Shown piece after piece: positions 5,640 to 14,337 of a stretch of DNA of 14,337 nt (the stretch's first letter is position 1; the number at the start of each line of letters is the position of its first letter). Source of the stretch: a virus; UHGV virus genome UHGV-0078064; one strand, given 5' to 3'. The notes below the pieces were generated by a model that saw nothing but the letters and a program-made list of their open reading frames with translations, was not told the origin of the DNA and made no database searches. The position numbers and the translations under genes were made by a program.

Positions 5640-5835
5640 GGCTTACTCCTGGCAAAAAACAGAGAAAGGAAACAATCAACGGTAAACTTCCGTTTTCCTT
5701 GCTCAGCATTTCCTTTCTGGAGAGAGGACGTTTTTAACAAAAACAATGAGTAAACAAGAAGAAGAACGGAAATGGCATAAACCAGAAAATTTTCATAAAT
5801 AGCGAGAATCTGCGCGGACGCCGCCCCGTAACAAG
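5640..5835. other. cos: cos site: cosB (R1, I1, R2, R3 terminase-binding repeats) and cosN nicking region
   Basis: Reverse complement reads ...GTTACG GGGCGGCGTCCG CGCAGATTCTCGCTATTTATGAAAATTTTCTGGTTTATGCCATTTCCGTTCTTC...GTTTCCTTTCTC...ATG(Nu1), matching the lambda cos layout. R-like elements: gagaaaggaaac (about 5662-5673), tttcctttct in opposite orientation (about 5709-5718), gaagaacggaaatgg (about 5761-5775). Predicted 12-nt cohesive end is GGGCGGCGTCCG (+ strand about 5815-5826); lambda has GGGCGGCGACCT. Confidence 0.85.
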
Positions 5836-5884
5836 GCGGATCGCCGGAAAGGACCCGCAAACGATAATAATTATCAATTGCACA

Positions 5885-6349
5885 CTATCGACGGCACTGC
5901 TGCCAGATAACACCACCGGGGAAACATTCCATCATGATGGCCGTGCGGACATAGGAAGCCAGTTCATCCATCGCTTTCTTGTCTGCTGCCATTTGCTTTG
6001 TGACATCCAGCGCCGCACATTCAGCAGCGTTTTTCAGCGCGTTTTCGATCAACGTTTCAATGTTGGTATCAACACCAGGTTTAACTTTGAACTTATCGGC
6101 ACTGACGGTTACCTTGTTCTGCGCTGGCTCATCACGCTGGATACCAAGGCTGATGTTGTAGATATTGGTCACCGGCTGAGGTGTTTCGATTGCCGCTGCG
6201 TGGATAGCACCATTTGCGATAGCGGCGTCCTTGATGAATGACACTCCATTGCGAATAAGTTCGAAGGAGACGGTGTCACGAATGCGCTGGTCCAGCTCGT
6301 CGATTGCCTTTTGTGCAGCAGAGGTATCAATCTCAACGCCAAGCGTCAT
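5885..6349 (-). CDS. Hypothetical protein, cos-proximal late-strand accessory gene
   Basis: 154-aa ORF (MTLGVEIDTSAAQKAIDELDQRIRDTVSFELIRNG...) with ATG start, 12 nt downstream of the preceding gene's stop, ending 55-60 nt before cosN. No family recognised from memory. Occupies the position of lambda's post-bor ORFs but does not resemble them by size or order. Confidence 0.6.
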   Translation of the reverse strand: MTLGVEIDTSAAQKAIDELDQRIRDTVSFELIRNGVSFIKDAAIANGAIHAAAIETPQPVTNIYNISLGIQRDEPAQNKVTVSADKFKVKPGVDTNIETLIENALKNAAECAALDVTKQMAADKKAMDELASYVRTAIMMECFPGGVIWQQCRR

Positions 6350-6361
6350 CGAAGCGCAATA

Positions 6362-6613
6362 TTACTGCTCACCAAAACGCGTATTGACCAGGTGTTCAAC
6401 GGCAAATTTCTGCCCTTCTGATGTCAGAAAGGTAAAGTGATTTTCTTTCTGGTATTCAGTTGCTGTGTGTCTGGTTTCAGCAAAACCAAGCTCGCGCAAT
6501 TCGGCTGTGCCAGATTTAGAAGGCAGATCACCAGACAGCAACGCGCCACGGAAAAACAGCGCATAAAGCACTTCATTAGCAGCGCCAGATAGCGTAATGA
6601 TTTTGTTACTCAT
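6362..6613 (-). CDS. Hypothetical small protein, cos-proximal late-strand accessory gene
   Basis: 83 aa from the ATG at 6611-6613 (MSNKIITLSGAANEVLYALFFRGALLSGDL...), with AAGGAAA SD about 6 nt upstream. The ORF track's 96-aa version starts at a TTG at 6652 with no SD. No family recognised. Confidence 0.6.
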   Translation of the reverse strand: MSNKIITLSGAANEVLYALFFRGALLSGDLPSKSGTAELRELGFAETRHTATEYQKENHFTFLTSEGQKFAVEHLVNTRFGEQ

Positions 6614-6632
6614 GGAATATTTCCTTTTAGGC

Positions 6633-6686
6633 GTGAGCCTGTCGCACGGCAAAGCCGCCGAAAGTTAACGGTTTGCCCAGGCTCAC
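6633..6686. repeat. Perfect 9-bp inverted repeat GTGAGCCTG / CAGGCTCAC with a 36-bp spacer that contains a nested GGCAAA/TTTGCC pair
   Basis: Read directly: arms at 6633-6641 and 6678-6686, nested complementary hexamers at 6648-6653 and 6672-6677, GTTAAC palindrome in the centre. Lies 20-73 nt upstream of the 83-aa gene start. Confidence 0.7.
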
Positions 6687-6724
6687 AGCTGAAAGACTTT
6701 CTACGATGTGCGCGTGCGATGCGC

Positions 6725-6749
6725 ATAAAAAAGCCGCGTGATGGCGGCT
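6725..6749 (-). terminator. Candidate rho-independent terminator (minus strand)
   Basis: Minus-strand RNA: AGCCGC-CAUCAC-GCGGCU (6-bp GC-rich stem, 6-nt loop) followed by UUUUUAU. The + strand tail is weaker (ACUGUUUG). Confidence 0.55.
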
Positions 6750-6878
6750 ACTGTTTGAATATCAGGGTGTTGTTTCGTCTTAACCCTGGTTAATGTAGGC
6801 ATTCAGCCCGTCGGTGGTGGGACACTGGCGCACTTAATAAAGAGTACTGGCTGATTACCTCAGAATAAGGAATCAAAA

Positions 6879-7139
6879 ATGTCAGAAGGTTTTGGTTTAA
6901 AAGAAAAGGTTGAGCAGTTAGAAAAAGAATTAGCCGTACAAAAAATAGCAAATCAGCTTGCTTTTGGAGCACTAATTAAAGCAGTTAATGAGCTGTACCC
7001 GAACAAAGATTTATATGATGGGTTGACAAAATTTGTCCAGGAAAAACTTGATCCTGAACGTGTTAAAAACATCCCTAATCTTCACGAGGCCTTTCTAGAA
7101 GCTGCGAAAATACTGAGGACTGACGCATCTCCTGAATAA
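6879..7139 (+). CDS. Hypothetical protein encoded on the opposite strand, AT-rich (moron-like)
   Basis: 86-aa ORF (MSEGFGLKEKVEQLEKELAVQKIANQLAFGALIKAVNELYPNKDLYDGL...), with AAGGA SD 7 nt upstream of the ATG. Conspicuously AT-rich relative to flanking phage genes. It is the only convincing + strand gene in the window and sits where lambda has bor (also opposite strand), but the product is not Bor-like and has no lipoprotein signal. Confidence 0.6.
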   Translation: MSEGFGLKEKVEQLEKELAVQKIANQLAFGALIKAVNELYPNKDLYDGLTKFVQEKLDPERVKNIPNLHEAFLEAAKILRTDASPE

Positions 7140-7233
7140 TTTTATCAACAAAGGCAGTTGTGTCCTCTTGCTTTTCATTCACAATGCATGTGACTGCCTT
7201 TTCTAAAGCTGTAATTCGTTCTTCAAGTGTCAT
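7075..7233 (-). CDS. Possible small ORF (52 aa) convergent with and overlapping the 3' end of the + strand gene
   Basis: ATG at 7231-7233 (MTLEERITALEKAVTCIVNEKQEDTTAFVDKIIQEMRQSSVFSQLLERPRED) preceded by AGGAG with 5-nt spacing. Overlaps the + gene by 65 bp. The ORF track extends it to a TTG at 7257. Coding status uncertain. Confidence 0.3.
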   Translation of the reverse strand: MTLEERITALEKAVTCIVNEKQEDTTAFVDKIIQEMRQSSVFSQLLERPRED

Positions 7234-7292
7234 ACCCACTCCTGTCATTGGCTTCAAAATGATAAACCCCGCATTTGCAAGTCCTATTTATA

Positions 7293-7331
7293 CCCCGCAG
7301 GGGATAAAAACCATATTATCCGCTTGCGGGG
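7293..7331. repeat. Imperfect palindrome CCCCGCAGGGGATAA-(8 nt)-TTATCCGCTTGCGGGG
   Basis: Read directly: GGATAA/TTATCC (6 bp) and CCCCGC/GCGGGG (6 bp) arms separated by a small internal loop. No clean U-tract on either strand. On the minus strand it abuts a TATAAAT element. Confidence 0.6.
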
Positions 7332-7373
7332 ATATCCATTATCAAGCCCACCAGCAGGTGAGCTTTGGAATGG

Positions 7374-7633: not shown

Positions 7634-8362
7634 TCAGGCCGCCGCATAGAGCAATTTCATCTGCCCTTTCACCGGGAATGCCGACATGCAACGCGCTTCG
7701 AAATCACGATAATCAGAGCACCCATTGGCAATGCTGGTAACGGCAATGATCTGTCGCTCAACCAATGTCAGCGCGTCAGGTTTAAGGTGCTGATGGATTT
7801 TGTCTCCCGCAGCCAGCCGTCTTTTAACCTCTGCATATACTTCTGGTGGTAATACCGGGCCATATACCCACTTGGCACTGATCATCCCAAATAGTGCGGG
7901 GCGACGACCTGGTCGATGACGGGGCAGCCCTGACATTTTGAACATCGCAGAATAAAACGGATCGCTAAACCTCTTTTCCCATGGCTGAGATTTATCCAGA
8001 AGGAAAATAGCCTTTATTCTTTCATCGTCGATATGATGAACGGAACCCTGAATGATTGCGTCAATTTGCTCATCACACCAGATCTCAAAATCTACAGAAA
8101 GCCATCGAGCAAATCTGACCGCCAGTTTTGGGTGAAGCCATGTTCCGCCGCCACGGTCTTTGCGAGCGCGGCTGGTTTTTACATATGTGATATTCCCATA
8201 TCTACTCTTTAACGCCTCGATGTAACGGACAGTCTCAGGAAGCCTAAGCCACTGAGCCGGCTCCTTGTTGAACTTGTCAGCTGCCGCAGTCGCGTCAAAC
8301 CAGCCATCGTCAGAAAAACGCATGGGATGGCCTTCGAAATCAATCGGGATGATATTGGACAT
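7634..8362 (-). CDS. KilA-N domain protein (N-terminal KilA-N/APSES-type DNA-binding domain; C-terminal half unassigned)
   Basis: 243 aa from the ATG at 8360-8362 (MSNIIPIDFEGHPMRFSDDGWFDATAAADKFNKEPAQWLRLPETVRYIEAL...GGGTWLHPKLAVRFARWLSVDFEIW), a pattern typical of KilA-N domains. AAGG SD about 9 nt upstream. The ORF track's 267-aa version begins at a GTG with no SD. Confidence 0.7.
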   Translation of the reverse strand: MSNIIPIDFEGHPMRFSDDGWFDATAAADKFNKEPAQWLRLPETVRYIEALKSRYGNITYVKTSRARKDRGGGTWLHPKLAVRFARWLSVDFEIWCDEQIDAIIQGSVHHIDDERIKAIFLLDKSQPWEKRFSDPFYSAMFKMSGLPRHRPGRRPALFGMISAKWVYGPVLPPEVYAEVKRRLAAGDKIHQHLKPDALTLVERQIIAVTSIANGCSDYRDFEARCMSAFPVKGQMKLLYAAA

Positions 8363-8512
8363 CGTATTTACCTTTTTGGTGATATGAGCCAGTTCTCGCA
8401 GACATGGACAGCCCAAGAGCGGCACGATGTAAGCCACCGTCCTGTCTCTGTCTCATATCCCGAAAAGCTCTTGGTTGATATGCGCACGAGAATGCGCGTT
8501 TACTGCGGACAT

Positions 8513-8568: not shown

Positions 8569-9006
8569 TTATTTCAGGCACTGAGTCCTGATGTACTCCT
8601 GCAGGTAGTTAACCTGCGCGGTTATCCTGTCGATTCCACTTCGGAGACGGTAATAATTGAGTTCAGCATCTGCTGTAAGTCTTGGGCTTTCTCCATCGCC
8701 CATGCCGCTGGCTCCGGTCGTTGACTTTGCACAGGTGGCGGCGACTTGCAGGCGCTTACGCCCAGCAGAAACATCAGCACGGAGACTTTCGATAGTCGCG
8801 TTAGCATCAGCAAGCTCCTTTGTATATCTGGCATCGAGTTCTGCTACATCACGTTGACGCTTCTGCATGTCAGCAATAGTGGATGCGGCTTTGTCGCGCT
8901 GTTCTTTGTAGGCGATTGCATTATCACGGTAATGATTAACAGCCCATGACAGGCAGACGATGATGCAGATAACCAGAGCGGAGATAATCGCGGTGACTCT
9001 GCTCAT
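8569..9006 (-). CDS. Rz: Spanin, inner-membrane subunit (i-spanin) Rz
   Basis: 145 aa; the N-terminus [31 protein letters not shown] matches lambda Rz as recalled. Start overlaps the R stop (ATGA). Confidence 0.92.
8622..8807 (-). CDS. Rz1: Spanin, outer-membrane lipoprotein subunit (o-spanin) Rz1, embedded in the +1 frame of Rz
   Basis: 61 aa from the ATG at 8805-8807: [20 protein letters not shown] (signal peptide with VSAC lipobox) followed by a proline-rich segment [13 protein letters not shown]. Entirely embedded in Rz, the lambda architecture. Confidence 0.8.
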
Positions 9007-9479
9007 ACCTCAATCTCTCTGACCGTTCCGCCTGCCTCTTTGAATTTTGCAATCAGGCTGTCAGCCTTATGCTCGAACTGACCATAACCAGCGCCCGGCA
9101 GTGAGGCCCAGATATTGCTGCAACGGTCGATTGCCTGACGAATATCACCGCGGTCAATCATCGGTAAAGCGCCACGCTCTTTAATCTGTTGCAATGCCAC
9201 AGCGTCCTGGCTTTTCGGAGAGAAGTCTTTCAGGCCAAGCTGCTTACGGTAGGCATCCCACCAACGGGAAAGAAGCTGGTAACGTCCGGCGGCTGTTGAT
9301 TTGAGTTTGGGGTTTAGCGTGACAAGTTTGCGAGGGTGATCGGAGTAATCAGTGAATAGCTCTCCGCCTACAATGACGTCATAACCATGATTTCTGGTTT
9401 TCTGACGTCCGTTATCAGTTCCCTCTGACCATGCCAGCATATCGAGGAACGCCTTACGTTGATTATTGATTCCCACCAT
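9003..9479 (-). CDS. R: Endolysin R (lytic transglycosylase)
   Basis: 158 aa, essentially identical to lambda R as recalled ([53 protein letters not shown]...). Overlaps S by 17 nt as in lambda. Confidence 0.95.
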
Positions 9480-9786
9480 CTTCTACTCCGGCTTTTTTAG
9501 CAGCGAAGCGTTTGATAAGCGAACCAATCGAGTCAGTACCGATGTAGCCGATGAACACGCTCGTTATATAAGCGAGATTGCTACTTAGTCCGGCGAAGCC
9601 GAGAAGGTCACGAATGAACCAGGCGATAATGGCGCACATCGTTGCGTCGATTACTGTTTTTGTAAACGCACCGCCATTATATCTGCCGCGAAGGTACGCC
9701 ATTGCAAACGCAAGGATTGCCCCGATGCCTTGTTCCTTTGCCGCGAGAATGGCGGCTAACAGGTCATGTTTTTCTGGCATCTTCAT
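9463..9786 (-). CDS. S: Holin S (class I, with the Met1-Lys2-Met3 dual-start holin/antiholin motif)
   Basis: 107 aa, [62 protein letters not shown]..., near-identical to lambda S107/S105 as recalled. Confidence 0.95.
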
Positions 9787-11673: not shown

Positions 11674-12395
11674 TAAGCAGCCTCCCCGGTTACTTTCAGC
11701 ATTCCGTTATCGAGCAGCTTTCTGGTCAGCCACTGTTGACCACGCCCGGTGATTTTTGTGGTGAACGATATCTGTATTCCGTGATTTGTGTTGACCGCTG
11801 TTTCTTTCACTGTGAAATAGCCGCGATCCATATATTCCTGCATTGGCACATTTCGCCGGGAACCTGAAGCAATAAGGATTTTGTGATCGCGCATCCACGC
11901 AAACAGTTTGTTTGGACCAATTCCAACAACCTTTGCAAAGTTTCCAATCAAAATTCCACTGGCCTCGCCAACGCGATCGGCAAACTCAACTTTAGGTGCG
12001 GCAATTGCGAGCTGGTTTTCCAGCTGCATTTTCTGCTCAGCAAGGTCAGCAGCAAGGCGCAACGCTTCCGGTAGCGTTTTGGGGATATTAACCGCAGCTT
12101 CTTCAAGCTCTCGCCAGCGGTCAACAAGACGAGCGGTGAACTCTGGCGACAACTGGGCAACAACGACAATACTGTCTCGCTTACCTTGTTCGCCCTCGAA
12201 GACGTAATGCTCGTACTGAACATTGAACCCTAAGTTATTGATTCTTTCGGAAACCTCAATTTGAGGAAGCCGGATAACACCATTTTTAGCCAGCGTTTCG
12301 ATGGTACGTTTCACATTGTCATGACGCTTACCCACCAACTCAGCGATTTCAATGCTTGTCATTTTGATGGCATTGCCATTTATTAACTCACTCAT
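11673..12395 (-). CDS. Rha-family N-terminal plus ANT/KilA-C C-terminal domain protein (Roi-like antirepressor-type DNA-binding protein)
   Basis: 240 aa. N-terminus ELINGNAIKMTSIEIAELVGKRHDNVKRTIE resembles the phage Rha regulatory domain; the C-terminal segment ...ADRVGEASGILIGNFAKVVGIGPNKLFAWMRDHKILIASGSRRNVPMQEYMDRGYF resembles the antirepressor (ANT) C-terminal domain. Assignment from memory of domain signatures. Confidence 0.55.
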   Translation of the reverse strand: MSELINGNAIKMTSIEIAELVGKRHDNVKRTIETLAKNGVIRLPQIEVSERINNLGFNVQYEHYVFEGEQGKRDSIVVVAQLSPEFTARLVDRWRELEEAAVNIPKTLPEALRLAADLAEQKMQLENQLAIAAPKVEFADRVGEASGILIGNFAKVVGIGPNKLFAWMRDHKILIASGSRRNVPMQEYMDRGYFTVKETAVNTNHGIQISFTTKITGRGQQWLTRKLLDNGMLKVTGEAA

Positions 12396-12564
12396 CGTCT
12401 TCTTCCTCGTACATTGAGCTATTCGGATCGCTCATCAGTTCTGCACAGCAGTGCTCACACACGTGAACTTCCAGCACATGCAGCTTCTGACCGCAGTTAG
12501 CGCACGTTAAAGCCCGCTCGACGCTTTCTTTCTGGTATTGAAGGGATTGGGATGGGCTAAGCAT
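12388..12564 (-). CDS. ninF: NinF-like small cysteine-rich protein (not in the ORF track because under 60 aa)
   Basis: Hand translation of the reverse complement of 12388-12564 gives 58 aa: MLSPSQSLQYQKESVERALTCANCGQKLHVLEVHVCEHCCAELMSDPNSSMYEEEDDE. CxxC...CxxCC suggests a zinc ribbon. Its stop overlaps the downstream start (GTGA/ATG). Resembles lambda NinF as recalled. Confidence 0.7.
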   Translation of the reverse strand: MLSPSQSLQYQKESVERALTCANCGQKLHVLEVHVCEHCCAELMSDPNSSMYEEEDDE

Positions 12565-12940
12565 TATTGGCGTCCTGCATCATGAGAAAGACAATCATGG
12601 CGGCACGGAGTGGATTGTCATATGCGACACCAACATTCGGTCCGGCATCATCAAACAAGTCCCTTGCGTTGTCTGTAGCGCACGGCATTGAGGGATTGTC
12701 TAAAATTATGCTGATGTTGTTTTCAGTGATAATCGGCCATGCGTCTGCTGGGTTTGCGCATGGGTTAAAGGATCCGCGCTCAACCTCTACTTCAACTGCG
12801 TCTCCGTTTACAATGTCTCCCTCAAATGAGATAAACACCATCGCGCCATTCTCACCTTCTTTGTAATCCGGTGATCCGTTATGAATGGCTTCGAATACCG
12901 CCACGTTAATTTCAAAATCACTTAACTGTGAATAATCCAT
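12557..12940 (-). CDS. Acidic hypothetical protein, NinX-like by position (between ninE and ninF, as in P22)
   Basis: 127 aa from the ATG at 12938-12940 (MDYSQLSDFEINVAVFEAIHNGSPDYKEGENGAMVFISFEGD...), with GAGGAA SD about 5 nt upstream. The NinX call is by synteny only. Confidence 0.5.
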   Translation of the reverse strand: MDYSQLSDFEINVAVFEAIHNGSPDYKEGENGAMVFISFEGDIVNGDAVEVEVERGSFNPCANPADAWPIITENNISIILDNPSMPCATDNARDLFDDAGPNVGVAYDNPLRAAMIVFLMMQDANNA

Positions 12941-12942
12941 TG

Positions 12943-13119
12943 TCACTTCCTCGCACGATGTCTTAGCCACCGGATATCCCACAGGTGAGCCGTGTAGTTG
13001 AAGGTTTTTACGTCAGATTCTTTTGGGATTGGCTTGCGTTTATTTCTGGAGCGTTTCGTTGGAAGGTATTTGCAGTTTTCGCAGATGATGTCGGTGATAC
13101 TTCGTCGCTGTCGCCTCAT
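12943..13119 (-). CDS. ninE: NinE
   Basis: 58 aa from the ATG at 13117-13119: [58 protein letters not shown], matching lambda NinE as recalled. Start overlaps the ninB stop. Confidence 0.85.
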
Positions 13120-13526
13120 TCGTACCTCCTGTCGGTAAATCTGACACCCTGACCAATAGCCCACGCTGTTGTGTACTCAATCAGACTTGCCATACGCTTC
13201 ACACTCATCTGCGCGCTACTTTCGCGAATGTTGACGTATTCGCCTTCAAGCCCGGGCAAAACATCAGCTTCCTGTTTTGTTGCCACTGCATGACCGCTGA
13301 TCAACAAAACCTTCCATTGTTCCGGTTTTAACCATTTGCCGCACCATTGAACCTGACGTGCGATATCCGCCAGCATCGCGTGAAATTTTGCGTTCTGGTC
13401 AAGGTTGCGCTTGTAGTCAGTAATGCGGATGGTAACTGGCTTGTCTTTATCGAGTGGTGTTGCGAGGATGGCATTTATTGCAGCTTGCTGTTGTTGCTTA
13501 CTCCTGAGGAAAATTGTCTGTTTCAT
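13116..13526 (-). CDS. ninB: NinB-family protein (recombination-associated, ssDNA-binding)
   Basis: 136 aa. The motif [33 protein letters not shown] parallels lambda NinB (RSLDQNRKLWACLGDVSRQVEWHGRWLDAESWK) as recalled. GAGGAA SD present. Confidence 0.7.
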
Positions 13527-13534
13527 GGAATTCC

Positions 13535-13747
13535 TCAGTATGCGTAAAGGCTGTATCCGTTTTTATTTGGCCTGGTGCCATAGCCATATAGGCTCCAGCC
13601 ATCCTGTTTTCTCTCACCAAAAATATGCTTGCGGTATTCTTCCTGCTGGCGTCTCCATATTTCCATCATGTCTGGCTGGTTCTTTTCTCGCATTTTTCGG
13701 ATCTGCTCAAGGATGAACTCTATTTGCTGCTGATTTGTCATACTCAC
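13535..13747 (-). CDS. Hypothetical small protein (GTG start)
   Basis: 70-aa ORF (MSMTNQQQIEFILEQIRKMREKNQPDMMEIW...). The GTG start overlaps the upstream stop (GTGA); an alternative ATG lies 2 codons in. No family recognised. Confidence 0.45.
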   Translation of the reverse strand: MSMTNQQQIEFILEQIRKMREKNQPDMMEIWRRQQEEYRKHIFGERKQDGWSLYGYGTRPNKNGYSLYAY

Positions 13748-14052
13748 TCCTTCACTTTGATTCCAGCGGCGCGGATAGCCTCTACATCGCTTTCGTATTG
13801 CGATTCTGCACCTGAGTCATAGCCAATGTGATAATCACCGGGAAGTGGGCCTTTCTTTGGCTTTTGCAGCTCAATCTCGATAGCTGCTCGCGATGCCTGC
13901 CATAAAGTCCACCACTCATTTAAGGAGTGACGAATATCAATGCTTGAAAATGCGAAGTACCTATCACCATTTCTTGCCTCGGTTATCATCTCTAATGGTA
14001 ATTTCAATTTTTTGGCAACGTATTCCTCAAACTTCTTTCTTGATTCGTCCAT
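13744..14052 (-). CDS. Hypothetical protein
   Basis: 102-aa ORF (MDESRKKFEEYVAKKLKLPLEMITEARNGDRYFAFSSIDIRHSLNEWW...), ATG start with GAGGGT SD. No family recognised. Confidence 0.55.
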   Translation of the reverse strand: MDESRKKFEEYVAKKLKLPLEMITEARNGDRYFAFSSIDIRHSLNEWWTLWQASRAAIEIELQKPKKGPLPGDYHIGYDSGAESQYESDVEAIRAAGIKVKE

Positions 14053-14069
14053 CGATACTTACCCTCAGT

Positions 14070-14276
14070 TCAACTCACAAAACGCCACGCTATTTTTGCT
14101 ACAGCGACAGGCATAACACCGATAATCACCCACAGGAAAATGCTACCGAAAAGCACACCCACCAGGTCTTTACCTTCGCCTACCAACCGGACAAAACAGC
14201 CAGCAACCACAATGAACGTCGCCACCATCCACAGAGCACCGAGAAGCCTCAATGCAGAGAAAATCAACTCAACCAC
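14070..14276 (-). CDS. Small hydrophobic protein, probably membrane-associated (GTG start)
   Basis: 68 aa (MVELIFSALRLLGALWMVATFIVVAGCFVRLVGEGKDLVGVLFGSIFLWVIIGVMPVAVAKIAWRFVS). Two long hydrophobic stretches suggest two transmembrane helices. GTG start with GGGGGAGAG SD 6 nt upstream. Confidence 0.5.
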   Translation of the reverse strand: MVELIFSALRLLGALWMVATFIVVAGCFVRLVGEGKDLVGVLFGSIFLWVIIGVMPVAVAKIAWRFVS

Positions 14277-14290
14277 GATTTACTCTCCCC

Positions 14291-14323
14291 CAAATAAAAA
14301 GGCCTGCGATTACCAGCAGGCCT
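14291..14323 (-). terminator. Rho-independent terminator (minus strand), tR2-like by position at the entry to the nin region
   Basis: Perfect 8-bp stem AGGCCUGC / GCAGGCCU with an 8-nt loop, followed on the minus-strand RNA by UUUUUAUUUG. Lies immediately upstream of the first nin-region gene. Confidence 0.7.
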
Positions 14324-14337
14324 GTTATTAGCTCAGT

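What the first reader, a model, noticed from the sequence alone, without database searches (positions are those of the whole stretch)
13535..14323. Three unrecognised small genes, including a putative two-helix membrane protein, directly behind a strong terminator at the entry to the nin region
A perfect 8-bp stem followed by a U-tract (14291-14323) is positioned where lambda has tR2. It is immediately followed by a GTG-initiated 68-aa hydrophobic protein with a strong SD, then 102-aa and 70-aa ORFs, before the recognisable ninB. In lambda this slot holds ren and ninA. Small membrane proteins in early regions are candidates for host-kill or superinfection-exclusion functions, or for Ren-like protection, but I cannot assign these.
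Basis: partly seen in the sequence, partly recalled or inferred. Interest (0 to 1): 0.4.

Follow-up and report, generated by a model that had tools for sequence, protein, structure and literature searches.

The report
Accessory genes behind lambda terminator tR2
The hairpin is phage lambda's own tR2 terminator, and the three small genes behind it, one of them a real two-helix membrane protein, are already-catalogued but never-studied optional genes that lambda-like phages swap in and out at this spot, so the finding is largely ordinary.

Summary
On the minus strand there is an 8-bp hairpin plus U-tract (14323-14292). It is followed by a GTG-started 68-aa ORF, a 102-aa ORF, a third small ORF and ninB.

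The hairpin is not just placed like tR2. The 55 nt at 14337-14283 are identical to lambda tR2, including the GGGGGAGAG ribosome-binding site that serves ninB in lambda.

The genes are not unrecognised:
- ORF68 is HK022 gp58 (98.5% identical; phrog_1165). It is always 68 codons, has two hydrophobic helices, and occurs in 107 phage records and hundreds of enterobacterial prophages.
- ORF102 is the Sf6 gp48 orthologue (95%; Pfam PF26207, Phage_phiTE_015).
- The third ORF probably starts at the ATG at 13741 (68 aa, not 70) and belongs to a rare family (phrog_18758).

None of the three is Ren or NinA. In lambda, ren lies upstream of tR2, ninA reads through the hairpin, and ninB follows directly.

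I examined 96 viral contigs carrying this tR2. Half have ninB directly behind it. The other half carry 0.2-1.3 kb of reassorting accessory genes, and ORF68 is the commonest first gene.

Function is unknown. Position argues for delayed-early lytic expression that depends on antitermination, not prophage expression. Interest is low to moderate.

The parts
14269..14337 (-). 3' part of the ninA-type small hydrophobic ORF (...TELITGLLVIAGLFIWGRVNRG*). It reads through the tR2 hairpin. Its start lies off the window. Its TGA (14271-14269) overlaps the start of ORF68 (GTGGTTGA).
   Evidence: Read directly from the sequence. The same ORF is annotated as ninA in HK620 and as 'NinA-like' gene 45 in Sf6. 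Upstream ATGACCATCTAC plus an SD is seen in 8 of 10 related loci. PMC4824070 reports that the NinA start site is active.
14292..14323 (-). Intrinsic terminator tR2: 8-bp stem (6 G-C pairs), 8-nt loop, then TTTTATTT.
   Evidence: Identical to lambda tR2. The same stretch is annotated tR2 in Sf6 and HK620 and 'terminator' in mEp235.
14283..14291 (-). Shine-Dalgarno GGGGGAGAG. It is the last part of the 55-nt block shared with lambda, where it serves ninB. Here it serves ORF68.
   Evidence: Alignment A1. It is conserved in front of whichever gene follows tR2 in 96 viral contigs.
14070..14276 (-). ORF68: 68 aa, GTG start, predicted two-helix (hairpin) inner-membrane protein of the HK022 gp58 family (phrog_1165).
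13744..14052 (-). ORF102: soluble acidic 102-aa protein, orthologue of Sf6 gp48, Pfam PF26207 (Phage_phiTE_015) / phrog_343. It has three conserved anchor segments and two variable cassettes.
13535..13741 (-). Third ORF: 68 aa from the ATG at 13741 (70 aa if the GTG at 13747 is used). Predicted helical hairpin plus a Tyr/Gly-rich tail (WSLYGYG...NGYSLYAY). Rare family phrog_18758.
13116..13526 (-). ninB (136-aa type), the downstream boundary of the accessory slot. Given as context.
   Evidence: Pfam NinB E=1.1e-55.

Best explanation
**Shown.** This is the variable accessory-gene slot between terminator tR2 and ninB in the rightward (PR) delayed-early operon of a lambda-like phage. The hairpin and the ribosome-binding site after it are lambda tR2 itself. 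This 55-nt block is a conserved junction at which different gene cassettes are joined in different phages. Here three independent, tightly packed cassettes lie between it and ninB:
1. A 68-aa two-helix membrane protein of the HK022 gp58 family.
2. The Sf6 gp48 orthologue (PF26207).
3. A rare 68-aa helical protein.

**Inferred from position.** The genes have no promoter of their own and lie behind tR2. They should therefore be transcribed with the nin genes only when antiterminated polymerase reads through tR2, that is during lytic growth or induction and not in the repressed prophage. ORF68 is translated from the SD that lambda uses for ninB, possibly coupled to the ninA ORF whose stop overlaps its start. 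They are probably non-essential, as the surrounding nin region is in lambda and Sf6.

**Inferred, low confidence (about 0.3).** ORF68 inserts in the inner membrane as a hairpin, with a weak preference for N and C termini in the cytoplasm. It probably acts by binding a membrane protein through its conserved second helix and C-terminal juxtamembrane motif (F-x5-W-x3-G-x2-P-x4-K-x2-W). The first helix is free to vary. The most plausible role is a lytic-phase modulator of a host or competing-phage membrane function, for example blocking DNA entry of superinfecting phage or blunting a membrane-acting abortive-infection effector. ORF102 and the third ORF are soluble accessory proteins. The reassorting variable cassettes of ORF102 suggest a binding protein under diversifying pressure.
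For: **Identity to lambda.** Window 14337-14283 matches lambda tR2 plus its SD at 55/55 nt. The sequences diverge right after the SD.

**Same arrangement elsewhere.** Nine of 10 loci carrying an ORF68 homologue have the hairpin and SD directly in front of it. The start is GTG or ATG at the same spacing, and the gene is always 68 codons.

**Census of 96 IMG/VR contigs with this tR2.**
- 49 have ninB directly behind tR2.
- 47 have 0.2-1.3 kb of accessory genes.
- The first gene behind tR2 is ORF68 in 24 contigs, an Sf6 gp46-like protein in 10, and a PF26207-like protein in 7.
- ORF68 occurs with all three types of replication module upstream: Gally-type helicase 8, DnaB-like 7, lambda P+Ren 6.
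- The exact ORF68-ORF102-ORF70-ninB combination is seen only in the window.
- One of 5,426 complete E. coli genomes covers at least 80% of the region.

**Expression.** There is no promoter-like site near the three genes. In-vivo tR2 termination efficiency is about 0.9 (PMC4824070).

**Membrane character of ORF68.** Kyte-Doolittle 19-residue maxima are 1.99 and 2.49, GRAVY is 1.64. W16, W49, G53, P56, K61 and W64 are invariant down to 30% identity, while helix 1 varies. dN/dS is 0.3-0.8.

**ORF102 cassettes.** N-terminal and C-terminal cassettes reassort in at least 9 combinations.
Against: - Topology rests on hydropathy and a weak positive-inside count (3 versus 2 Lys/Arg). No dedicated predictor was available.
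- The promoter scan covers only sigma-70 consensus and could miss a weak or activator-dependent promoter. About 10% read-through of tR2 could also give low expression whenever PR fires.
- The region upstream of tR2, including the replication genes and any nut or N function, is off the window. Dependence on antitermination is assumed by analogy with lambda.
- HK022, which carries a 98.5% identical gene, uses RNA-based (put) antitermination rather than N (my own knowledge, not tested here).
Confidence: 0.7

Rival explanations
1. One reading: the genes, above all ORF68, are prophage-expressed 'moron'-type functions for superinfection exclusion, host kill or Ren-like protection that act in the lysogen.
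For: ORF68 is a small membrane protein, as several exclusion proteins are. It is an optional cassette present in about a quarter of contigs carrying this tR2. Other unrelated small membrane proteins occupy the same first slot: Sf6 gp46-like and a 90-aa 'MKDLLVTL' protein.
Against: There is no promoter-like site in front of it. It lies directly behind a terminator of about 0.9 efficiency inside the repressor-controlled PR operon. It uses the SD of an early lytic gene. It has no terminator of its own and is packed 17 nt from the next gene. There are no PADLOC hits and no similarity to Ren.
Confidence: 0.12
2. ORF68 is a lytic-phase membrane toxin or lysis-timing factor (pinholin- or antiholin-like) that depolarises or permeabilises the inner membrane.
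For: It is 68 aa with two hydrophobic helices. This is the same size and helix count as the phage 21 pinholin S21-68 (my own knowledge, not tested here).
Against: It lies in the early operon, about 4.3 kb from the lysis cassette. The phage has its own lambda-S-type holin (Pfam Phage_holin_3_1, 9463-9786) and an Rz gene. ORF68 lacks the strongly charged C-terminal tail typical of holins; it has only K61 and R65. No holin family hit was found.
Confidence: 0.08
3. One or more of the ORFs is not a real gene, or ORF68 is really the shorter 52-aa ORF from the internal ATG, as annotated in mEp235.
For: mEp235 and HK629 annotate shorter versions. HK620 does not annotate the gene at all. The third ORF has frameshifted and 51-aa variants.
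Against: Residues 1-16 are conserved. The Salmonella homologues start with ATG at exactly the GTG position, behind the same SD. The length of 68 codons is kept down to 43% identity, with dN/dS below 1. phrog_1165 matches positions 1-68 of 68. PGAP aa.
Confidence: 0.04
4. The three genes form one functional unit, for example a membrane anchor plus two soluble partners, rather than independent cassettes.
For: They are tightly packed and co-oriented. ORF68 and a PF26207 gene co-occur in 18 of 24 ORF68 carriers against 16 of 72 non-carriers (Fisher p about 1e-5). A distant ORF68 relative (P0268) also has a weak PF26207 gene on its contig.
Against: The association vanishes among contigs that carry any accessory gene at all (18 of 24 versus 16 of 23, derived), and the contigs are not independent samples. 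Each gene occurs without the others. The third ORF is found with ORF68 in only one other genome, E. coli E-93. PF26207 partners of ORF68 carry different cassettes.
Confidence: 0.08

Closest known systems
Bacteriophage lambda terminator tR2, with the overlapping ninA ORF and the 'bsq6' boundary sequence annotated in Sf6
   Same: 55/55 nt identity including the hairpin, U-tract and following SD. Same place in the gene order, ahead of ninB.
   Different: In lambda the SD drives ninB directly. Here it drives ORF68, and 0.75 kb of extra genes precede ninB. The upstream context (ren or a helicase gene) is off the window.
HK022 gp58 (AUM59826.1) / Stx2-converting phage 86 orf70 / phrog_1165: uncharacterised 68-aa proteins
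   Same: 98.5% and 88% amino-acid identity respectively. Same length, same position behind the tR2 hairpin, same GTG start.
   Different: Nothing of substance. No member has a known function. In HK022 the hairpin is preceded by two other genes (gp56, gp57) rather than by ninA.
Sf6 gene 48 protein / 933W L0091-like / Pfam PF26207 Phage_phiTE_015 (PGAP name 'phiTE_015 family protein')
   Same: ORF102 is 95% identical to Sf6 gp48 over all 102 residues. Its close homologues carry PF26207.
   Different: Other family members share only the three anchor segments and carry different cassettes. Function is unknown. The labels 'similar to P22 EaD' (phage Gally) and 'VOC family' are annotators' names without support here. 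For VOC, only a sub-threshold Glyoxalase_4 hit was seen in one relative.
Small early-expressed phage membrane proteins that block superinfection, such as T4 Imm, and prophage exclusion proteins such as HK97 gp15 (comparison from my own knowledge)
   Same: Small size, predicted inner-membrane location, and optional accessory status.
   Different: No sequence or profile similarity was found. Function is untested. Unlike prophage-expressed exclusion genes, ORF68 has no promoter of its own.

Membership tests
Lambda tR2 intrinsic terminator | G+C-rich hairpin followed by a U-tract | tested here: met
   8-bp stem with 6 G-C pairs, 8-nt loop, TTTTATTT.
Lambda tR2 intrinsic terminator | Sequence identity to lambda tR2 | tested here: met
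   55/55 nt identical to lambda 40582-40636.
Lambda tR2 intrinsic terminator | Position between the replication genes and ninB in the PR operon | tested here: inconclusive
   ninB lies downstream, but the replication genes are off the window. In all related loci the hairpin follows P/helicase or ren.
Lambda tR2 intrinsic terminator | Terminates transcription and is overridden by antitermination | not testable with these tools
   Literature value for the identical lambda sequence: in-vivo termination efficiency about 0.9 (PMC4824070).
HK022 gp58 family (phrog_1165) | Full-length match to the family profile | tested here: met
   E=5.6e-35, residues 1-68 on profile positions 1-68 of 68. 98.5% identity to HK022 gp58.
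HK022 gp58 family (phrog_1165) | 68 residues, two hydrophobic segments, conserved W16/W49/G53/P56/K61/W64 | tested here: met
Pfam PF26207 Phage_phiTE_015 | Match to the Pfam model | tested here: inconclusive
   The local Pfam copy lacks this model, so there was no hit. All 120 listed homologues, including one at 96% identity, carry a precomputed PF26207 hit. phrog_343 matches at E=7.5e-28.
Pfam PF26207 Phage_phiTE_015 | Conserved anchors MDESRKQFEE / WxxWQASRAAIEIE / IRAAGIKVKE | tested here: met
   All three anchors are present in ORF102.
NinA (lambda/P22/HK620 nomenclature) | ORF of about 27-29 aa starting MTIYITE..., reading through the tR2 hairpin | tested here: not met
   ORF68, ORF102 and the third ORF all start after the hairpin and are unrelated in sequence. 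The ninA-type ORF is a separate, partial feature at 14337-14269.
Ren (lambda Rex-exclusion protection) | Sequence similarity to lambda Ren; position upstream of tR2 | tested here: not met
   tblastn with lambda Ren finds no hit in the window region at E<=1e-5, while it finds ren upstream of tR2 in other contigs. In lambda, ren ends before the hairpin.
Holin / pinholin (class II) | Two membrane helices | tested here: met
   Hydropathy analysis.
Holin / pinholin (class II) | Location in the lysis cassette next to the endolysin; highly charged C-terminal tail; match to a holin family | tested here: not met
   ORF68 is in the early operon. The lysis cassette is at about 8569-9786 and has its own Phage_holin_3_1 gene. 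The C-terminus is AKIAWRFVS. No holin Pfam hit.
Prophage-expressed exclusion or defence 'moron' | Own promoter (and usually terminator) allowing expression in the lysogen | tested here: not met
   No sigma-70-like site near 13535-14337. The consensus scan could miss weak or non-sigma-70 promoters.
Prophage-expressed exclusion or defence 'moron' | Similarity to known defence proteins | tested here: not met
   No PADLOC hit at E<=1 for any of the three proteins.

The most novel reading that the evidence does not exclude
The position directly behind tR2 may be a dedicated landing site for small delayed-early membrane effectors. Three unrelated membrane-protein families account for 36 of 47 first genes there: ORF68 with two helices, Sf6 gp46-like with one, and a 90-aa 'MKDLLVTL' protein with one. 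The hydrophobic ninA peptide also overlaps the terminator itself. Under this reading ORF68 would be a new lytic-phase factor. It would act on an inner-membrane target, by excluding superinfecting DNA or neutralising a membrane-acting abortive-infection system. The cassette-shuffling PF26207 protein would be a diversifying binder in the same conflict.
Probability: 0.15. Interest if true: 0.55.

Novelty: new member of a known kind. Interest (0 to 1): 0.25.

Why it matters
As it stands, the result mainly corrects an annotation. The terminator is lambda tR2.

There is modest wider value in three points:
- The HK022 gp58 family is a widespread two-helix membrane protein. It was found in 24 of 96 sampled tR2-bearing viral contigs, in 107 phage records including 48 Stx2a-converting phages, and in hundreds of Escherichia, Shigella and Salmonella contigs. 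No function is known, and it is unannotated or mis-started in reference genomes such as HK620, mEp235 and HK629.
- The first gene behind tR2 is usually a small membrane protein, drawn from unrelated families.
- PF26207 proteins are built from reassorting cassettes.

Each of these points can be tested cheaply in well-established phage systems such as HK022, mEp235 and Sf6.

Tried and rejected
**Searches that gave nothing for the three proteins.**
- Pfam, NCBIfam and PADLOC scans.
- PDB sequence and profile searches.
- Foldseek against viral structures: only uncharacterised proteins for ORF102, nothing for the third ORF.
- The afdb50 library was unavailable.
- An HMMER scan of 1.84 billion representative proteins with ORF68 found 16 hits: fragments plus a few 63-68-aa relatives at 31-39% identity. 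No annotated relative emerged.
- Rfam and tRNA scans of the whole window were empty.

**Hypotheses tested and dropped.**
- *ORF68 is ninA.* The 'ninA' label under the HK620 hit is only a 2-nt overlap with the real ninA. ORF68 is unannotated in HK620.
- *ORF68 is tied to DnaB-type helicase modules.* The first 11 loci suggested this, but the census shows it also sits behind lambda P+Ren.
- *ORF68 and PF26207 are functionally linked.* The association disappears among contigs that carry any accessory gene.
- *ORF102 is under positive selection.* It shows 0 synonymous against 2-5 non-synonymous differences from close relatives, too few changes to mean anything.

**Literature.** Searches for phiTE_015, PF26207, and tR2/ninB/lambdoid terms returned nothing on function. 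Cheng et al. 1995 and Liu et al. 2013 are not held in the library.

**Host range.** A genome-collection scan for the tR2-ORF68 junction gave four hits: two Escherichia and two metagenome bins whose taxonomic labels look doubtful.
Full report
**1. What is in the sequence**

All genes in the window run on the minus strand. The order is lambdoid late genes at low coordinates (S49 protease, portal, terminase A/Nu1), then the lysis genes, then Q, then the nin genes up to ninB at 13526-13116.

At the high-coordinate end, the minus strand reads as follows:
- A hairpin, AGGCCTGC-TGGTAATC-GCAGGCCT, at 14323-14300.
- TTTTATTT at 14299-14292.
- GGGGGAGAG at 14291-14283.
- A 6-nt spacer, then GTG at 14276.

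Three ORFs follow:
- ORF68, 14276-14070.
- ORF102, 14052-13744.
- A third ORF listed as 13747-13535 (70 aa, GTG start).

They are separated by 17 nt, by an overlap or 2 nt, and by 8 nt from ninB.

One correction applies. The third ORF most likely starts at the ATG at 13741, 5 nt after AAGGAG, and is 68 aa long. Three results support this. The phrog_18758 profile aligns to residues 3-70 over its full length. Every full-length homologue is 68 aa and starts MTNQQQ. PGAP nt for the homologue in E. coli E-93.

**2. The terminator is lambda tR2 itself**

Window 14337-14283 is identical at 55 of 55 positions to lambda 40582-40636. In lambda, ren ends 26 nt before the hairpin, and ninB starts 8 nt after the shared block, using the GGGGGAGAG as its Shine-Dalgarno.

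The same block is annotated elsewhere:
- In Sf6 as 'tR2, homology to phage lambda' and as boundary sequence bsq6.
- In HK620 as tR2.
- In mEp235 as a rho-independent terminator.

A terminator-like pattern alone is not above chance in this region, with 1 found against 1.7 expected. The identity to lambda is the evidence. For the identical lambda sequence, an in-vivo study measured a maximal termination efficiency of about 0.9 (PMC4824070).

- ren is upstream of tR2.
- ninA is the ~27-aa hydrophobic ORF (MTIYITELITGLLVIAGLFIWGRGKS in lambda) that reads through the hairpin.
- Behind tR2, lambda has ninB.

The window holds only the 3' part of a ninA-type ORF, at 14337-14269. Its TGA overlaps the GTG of ORF68 (GTGGTTGA), an arrangement typical of translational coupling. 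PMC4824070 reports that the NinA initiation site is active and lowers tR2 efficiency by only about 10%.

**3. ORF68**

ORF68 is a real gene and a predicted two-helix membrane protein, and it is already catalogued.

*Physical properties.*
- GRAVY 1.64.
- Kyte-Doolittle 19-residue maxima of 1.99 (residues 4-22) and 2.49 (residues 41-59).
- A short polar loop, R30-LVGEGKD-37, between the two segments.

*Family membership.*
- It matches phrog_1165 end to end (E=5.6e-35).
- It is 98.5% identical to HK022 gp58.
- tblastn finds it in 107 of 50,697 phage records. These include 48 Stx2a-converting phages, HK75, HK629, mEpX1, mEp235, mEp213, HK620 and P22-like Salmonella phages, at 43-98% identity.
- The 5.8-billion-protein search returns 196 clusters, nearly all exactly 68 aa. 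All are named 'hypothetical' apart from one 'membrane protein'.
- A filter-free HMMER scan of 1.84 billion representatives adds only a few 63-68-aa relatives at 31-39% identity. The family is narrow and enterobacterial.

*Evidence for the gene and its start.*
- In 10 compared loci the gene is always 68 codons.
- In 9 of those 10 it sits directly behind the same hairpin and SD.
- The Salmonella versions have ATG exactly where the others have GTG.
- dN/dS against the window copy is 0.3-0.8.

These results support the GTG start over the internal ATG used in the mEp235 and HK629 annotations. HK620's reference record does not annotate the gene at all.

*Conservation pattern.*
- Invariant residues across the family are W16, W49, G53, P56, K61 and W64.
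- A basic residue at position 10 and the loop motif V-N/G-x-G-K-D are nearly invariant.
- Helix 2 and the C-terminal AK(M/I)AWRF are conserved, while helix 1 is variable.
- Lys/Arg counts are 3 on the N/C-terminal side and 2 in the loop. This only weakly favours both termini in the cytoplasm.

**4. ORF102**

ORF102 is the orthologue of Sf6 gene 48, at 95% identity over 102 residues.

- All listed homologues carry Pfam PF26207, named Phage_phiTE_015. PGAP now labels some of them 'phiTE_015 family protein'.
- The local Pfam copy lacks this model, so my own scans were blank.
- The family has three conserved anchors: MDESRKQFEE, W-x-x-WQASRAAIEIE and IRAAGIKVKE. Two variable cassettes between them reassort. 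Nine N-type by C-type combinations were seen among 24 genes in the census, and further types appear in alignment A3.
- An AlphaFold model (pLDDT 77) is a small helical bundle with a short two-strand sheet. The anchors form the scaffold, and the second cassette is of low confidence.
[quoted passage not shown] The region that holds gene 48 is therefore dispensable for lytic growth in the laboratory (PMC5630979).

**5. The third ORF**

This ORF is rare.
- It has 19 clusters in the large protein search.
- It occurs in 1 of 50,697 phage records, Bas106_0055 at 95.6% identity.
- It occurs in three census contigs and in E. coli E-93.
- It always lies immediately upstream of the 136-aa type of ninB.

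It is predicted as a charged helical hairpin (residues 3-41) followed by a disordered Tyr/Gly-rich tail with two WSLYGY/YSLYAY motifs. The model has pLDDT 69. Variants truncated at 51 aa and frameshifted variants exist. dN/dS is 0.2-0.45, based on very few changes. No family, structure or defence-system match was found.

**6. The slot behind tR2 is a mosaic junction**

I scanned IMG/VR for the exact hairpin plus SD. Of the 96 with at least 1.5 kb downstream:

| Arrangement behind tR2 | Contigs |
|---|---|
| ninB directly, as in lambda | 49 |
| 0.2-1.3 kb of accessory genes first | 47 |

Among the 47 with accessory genes, the first gene is:

| First gene | Contigs |
|---|---|
| ORF68 family (one copy frameshifted) | 24 |
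| Sf6 gp46-like, 108 aa, N-terminal membrane helix (Kyte-Doolittle 2.28) | 10 |
| PF26207-like | 7 |
| 90-aa 'MKDLLVTL' protein, N-terminal membrane helix (Kyte-Doolittle 1.78) | 2 |
| Others | 4 |

ORF68 carriers have any of three replication modules upstream: Gally-type helicase 8, DnaB-like 7, lambda P+Ren 6. This rejects a link to the helicase type that the first 11 loci had suggested.

ORF68 and PF26207 co-occur more often than chance across all contigs (18 of 24 against 16 of 72). The association is absent among contigs that have any accessory gene (18 of 24 against 16 of 23). The contigs are also not independent samples.

The exact combination ORF68-ORF102-third ORF-ninB was seen only in the window. 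One of 5,426 complete E. coli genomes (E-93) has the same three families, with a different PF26207 variant. The genes therefore behave as independent cassettes joined at a conserved linker, which is the classical lambdoid mosaic pattern.

**7. How it most likely works**

*Shown.* The anatomy, the identities and the cassette behaviour described above.

*Inferred from position.*
- No sigma-70-like promoter lies near the three genes.
- They sit inside the PR operon behind tR2.
- They should therefore be made only when antiterminated polymerase passes tR2, during lytic growth or after induction, together with ninB through Q.
- ORF68 borrows the SD that lambda uses for ninB and may be coupled to ninA translation.

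*Inferred with low confidence.* ORF68 inserts as a helical hairpin in the inner membrane. It acts through its conserved second helix and juxtamembrane tail on another membrane protein. A lytic-phase role is the most plausible. Candidates are blocking superinfecting DNA entry or countering a membrane-acting abortive-infection effector. Nothing here tests either.

**8. Verdict**

The feature is a new combination of known, uncharacterised lambdoid accessory genes behind a known terminator. Interest is low to moderate. The points worth a specialist's attention are these:
- The HK022 gp58 family is a widespread two-helix membrane protein with no known function.
- Unrelated small membrane proteins recur as the first gene behind tR2.
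- PF26207 proteins are built from reassorting cassettes.

Noticed in passing
window 14269-14337 (-): This is the 3' part of a ninA-type hydrophobic mini-ORF that is translated through the tR2 hairpin. Its stop codon overlaps the GTG of ORF68 (GTGGTTGA). In related loci the ORF starts at an ATGA or TGATG overlap with the upstream gene and has a strong SD. Translation across a terminator, coupled to the next gene, may tune both termination and ORF68 expression.
   Followed up: partly
IMG/VR loci L015-L134, directly downstream of the tR2 match: In 36 of 47 contigs that carry accessory genes behind tR2, the first gene encodes a small membrane protein. The proteins come from three unrelated families: ORF68 (two helices), Sf6 gp46-like (108 aa, one N-terminal helix), and a 90-aa 'MKDLLVTL...' protein.
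   Followed up: partly
window 13744-14052 (-), and PF26207 genes in loci L015-L134: PF26207 (Phage_phiTE_015) proteins consist of three conserved anchor segments and two hypervariable cassettes that reassort independently. At least 9 N-type by C-type combinations were seen. This is intragenic mosaicism within a gene of about 100 codons.
   Followed up: partly
L008 (HK620, NC_002730.1) locus 1795-2001, record about 12378-12584: The HK620 reference genome has an unannotated, intact 68-codon homologue of ORF68 (54.5% identity) between tR2 and ninB. mEp235 and HK629 annotate N-terminally truncated versions of the same gene.
   Followed up: yes
L011 (Salmonella phage S9-5) locus about 1410-1707: This ORF68 homologue has no tR2 hairpin in the 90 nt upstream. 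The record annotates no separate gene for it: the helicase CDS is annotated as running into its first 58 nt.
   Followed up: no
window 5640-7336: This stretch of about 1.7 kb lies between the KilA-N/P63C gene (7634-8437) and Nu1. It holds only short ORFs plus one 154-aa ORF (5885-6349) with a weak tail-tip-fiber hit. It had no close match among the top phage hits. It probably includes cos and lambda-like 'bor-side' filler.
   Followed up: no
L137 and L138 (genome-contig hits): The exact tR2-ORF68 junction occurs on contigs binned into a 'Bacillota' and a 'Cellvibrionaceae' metagenome-assembled genome. These are most likely mis-binned enterobacterial phage contigs.
   Followed up: no
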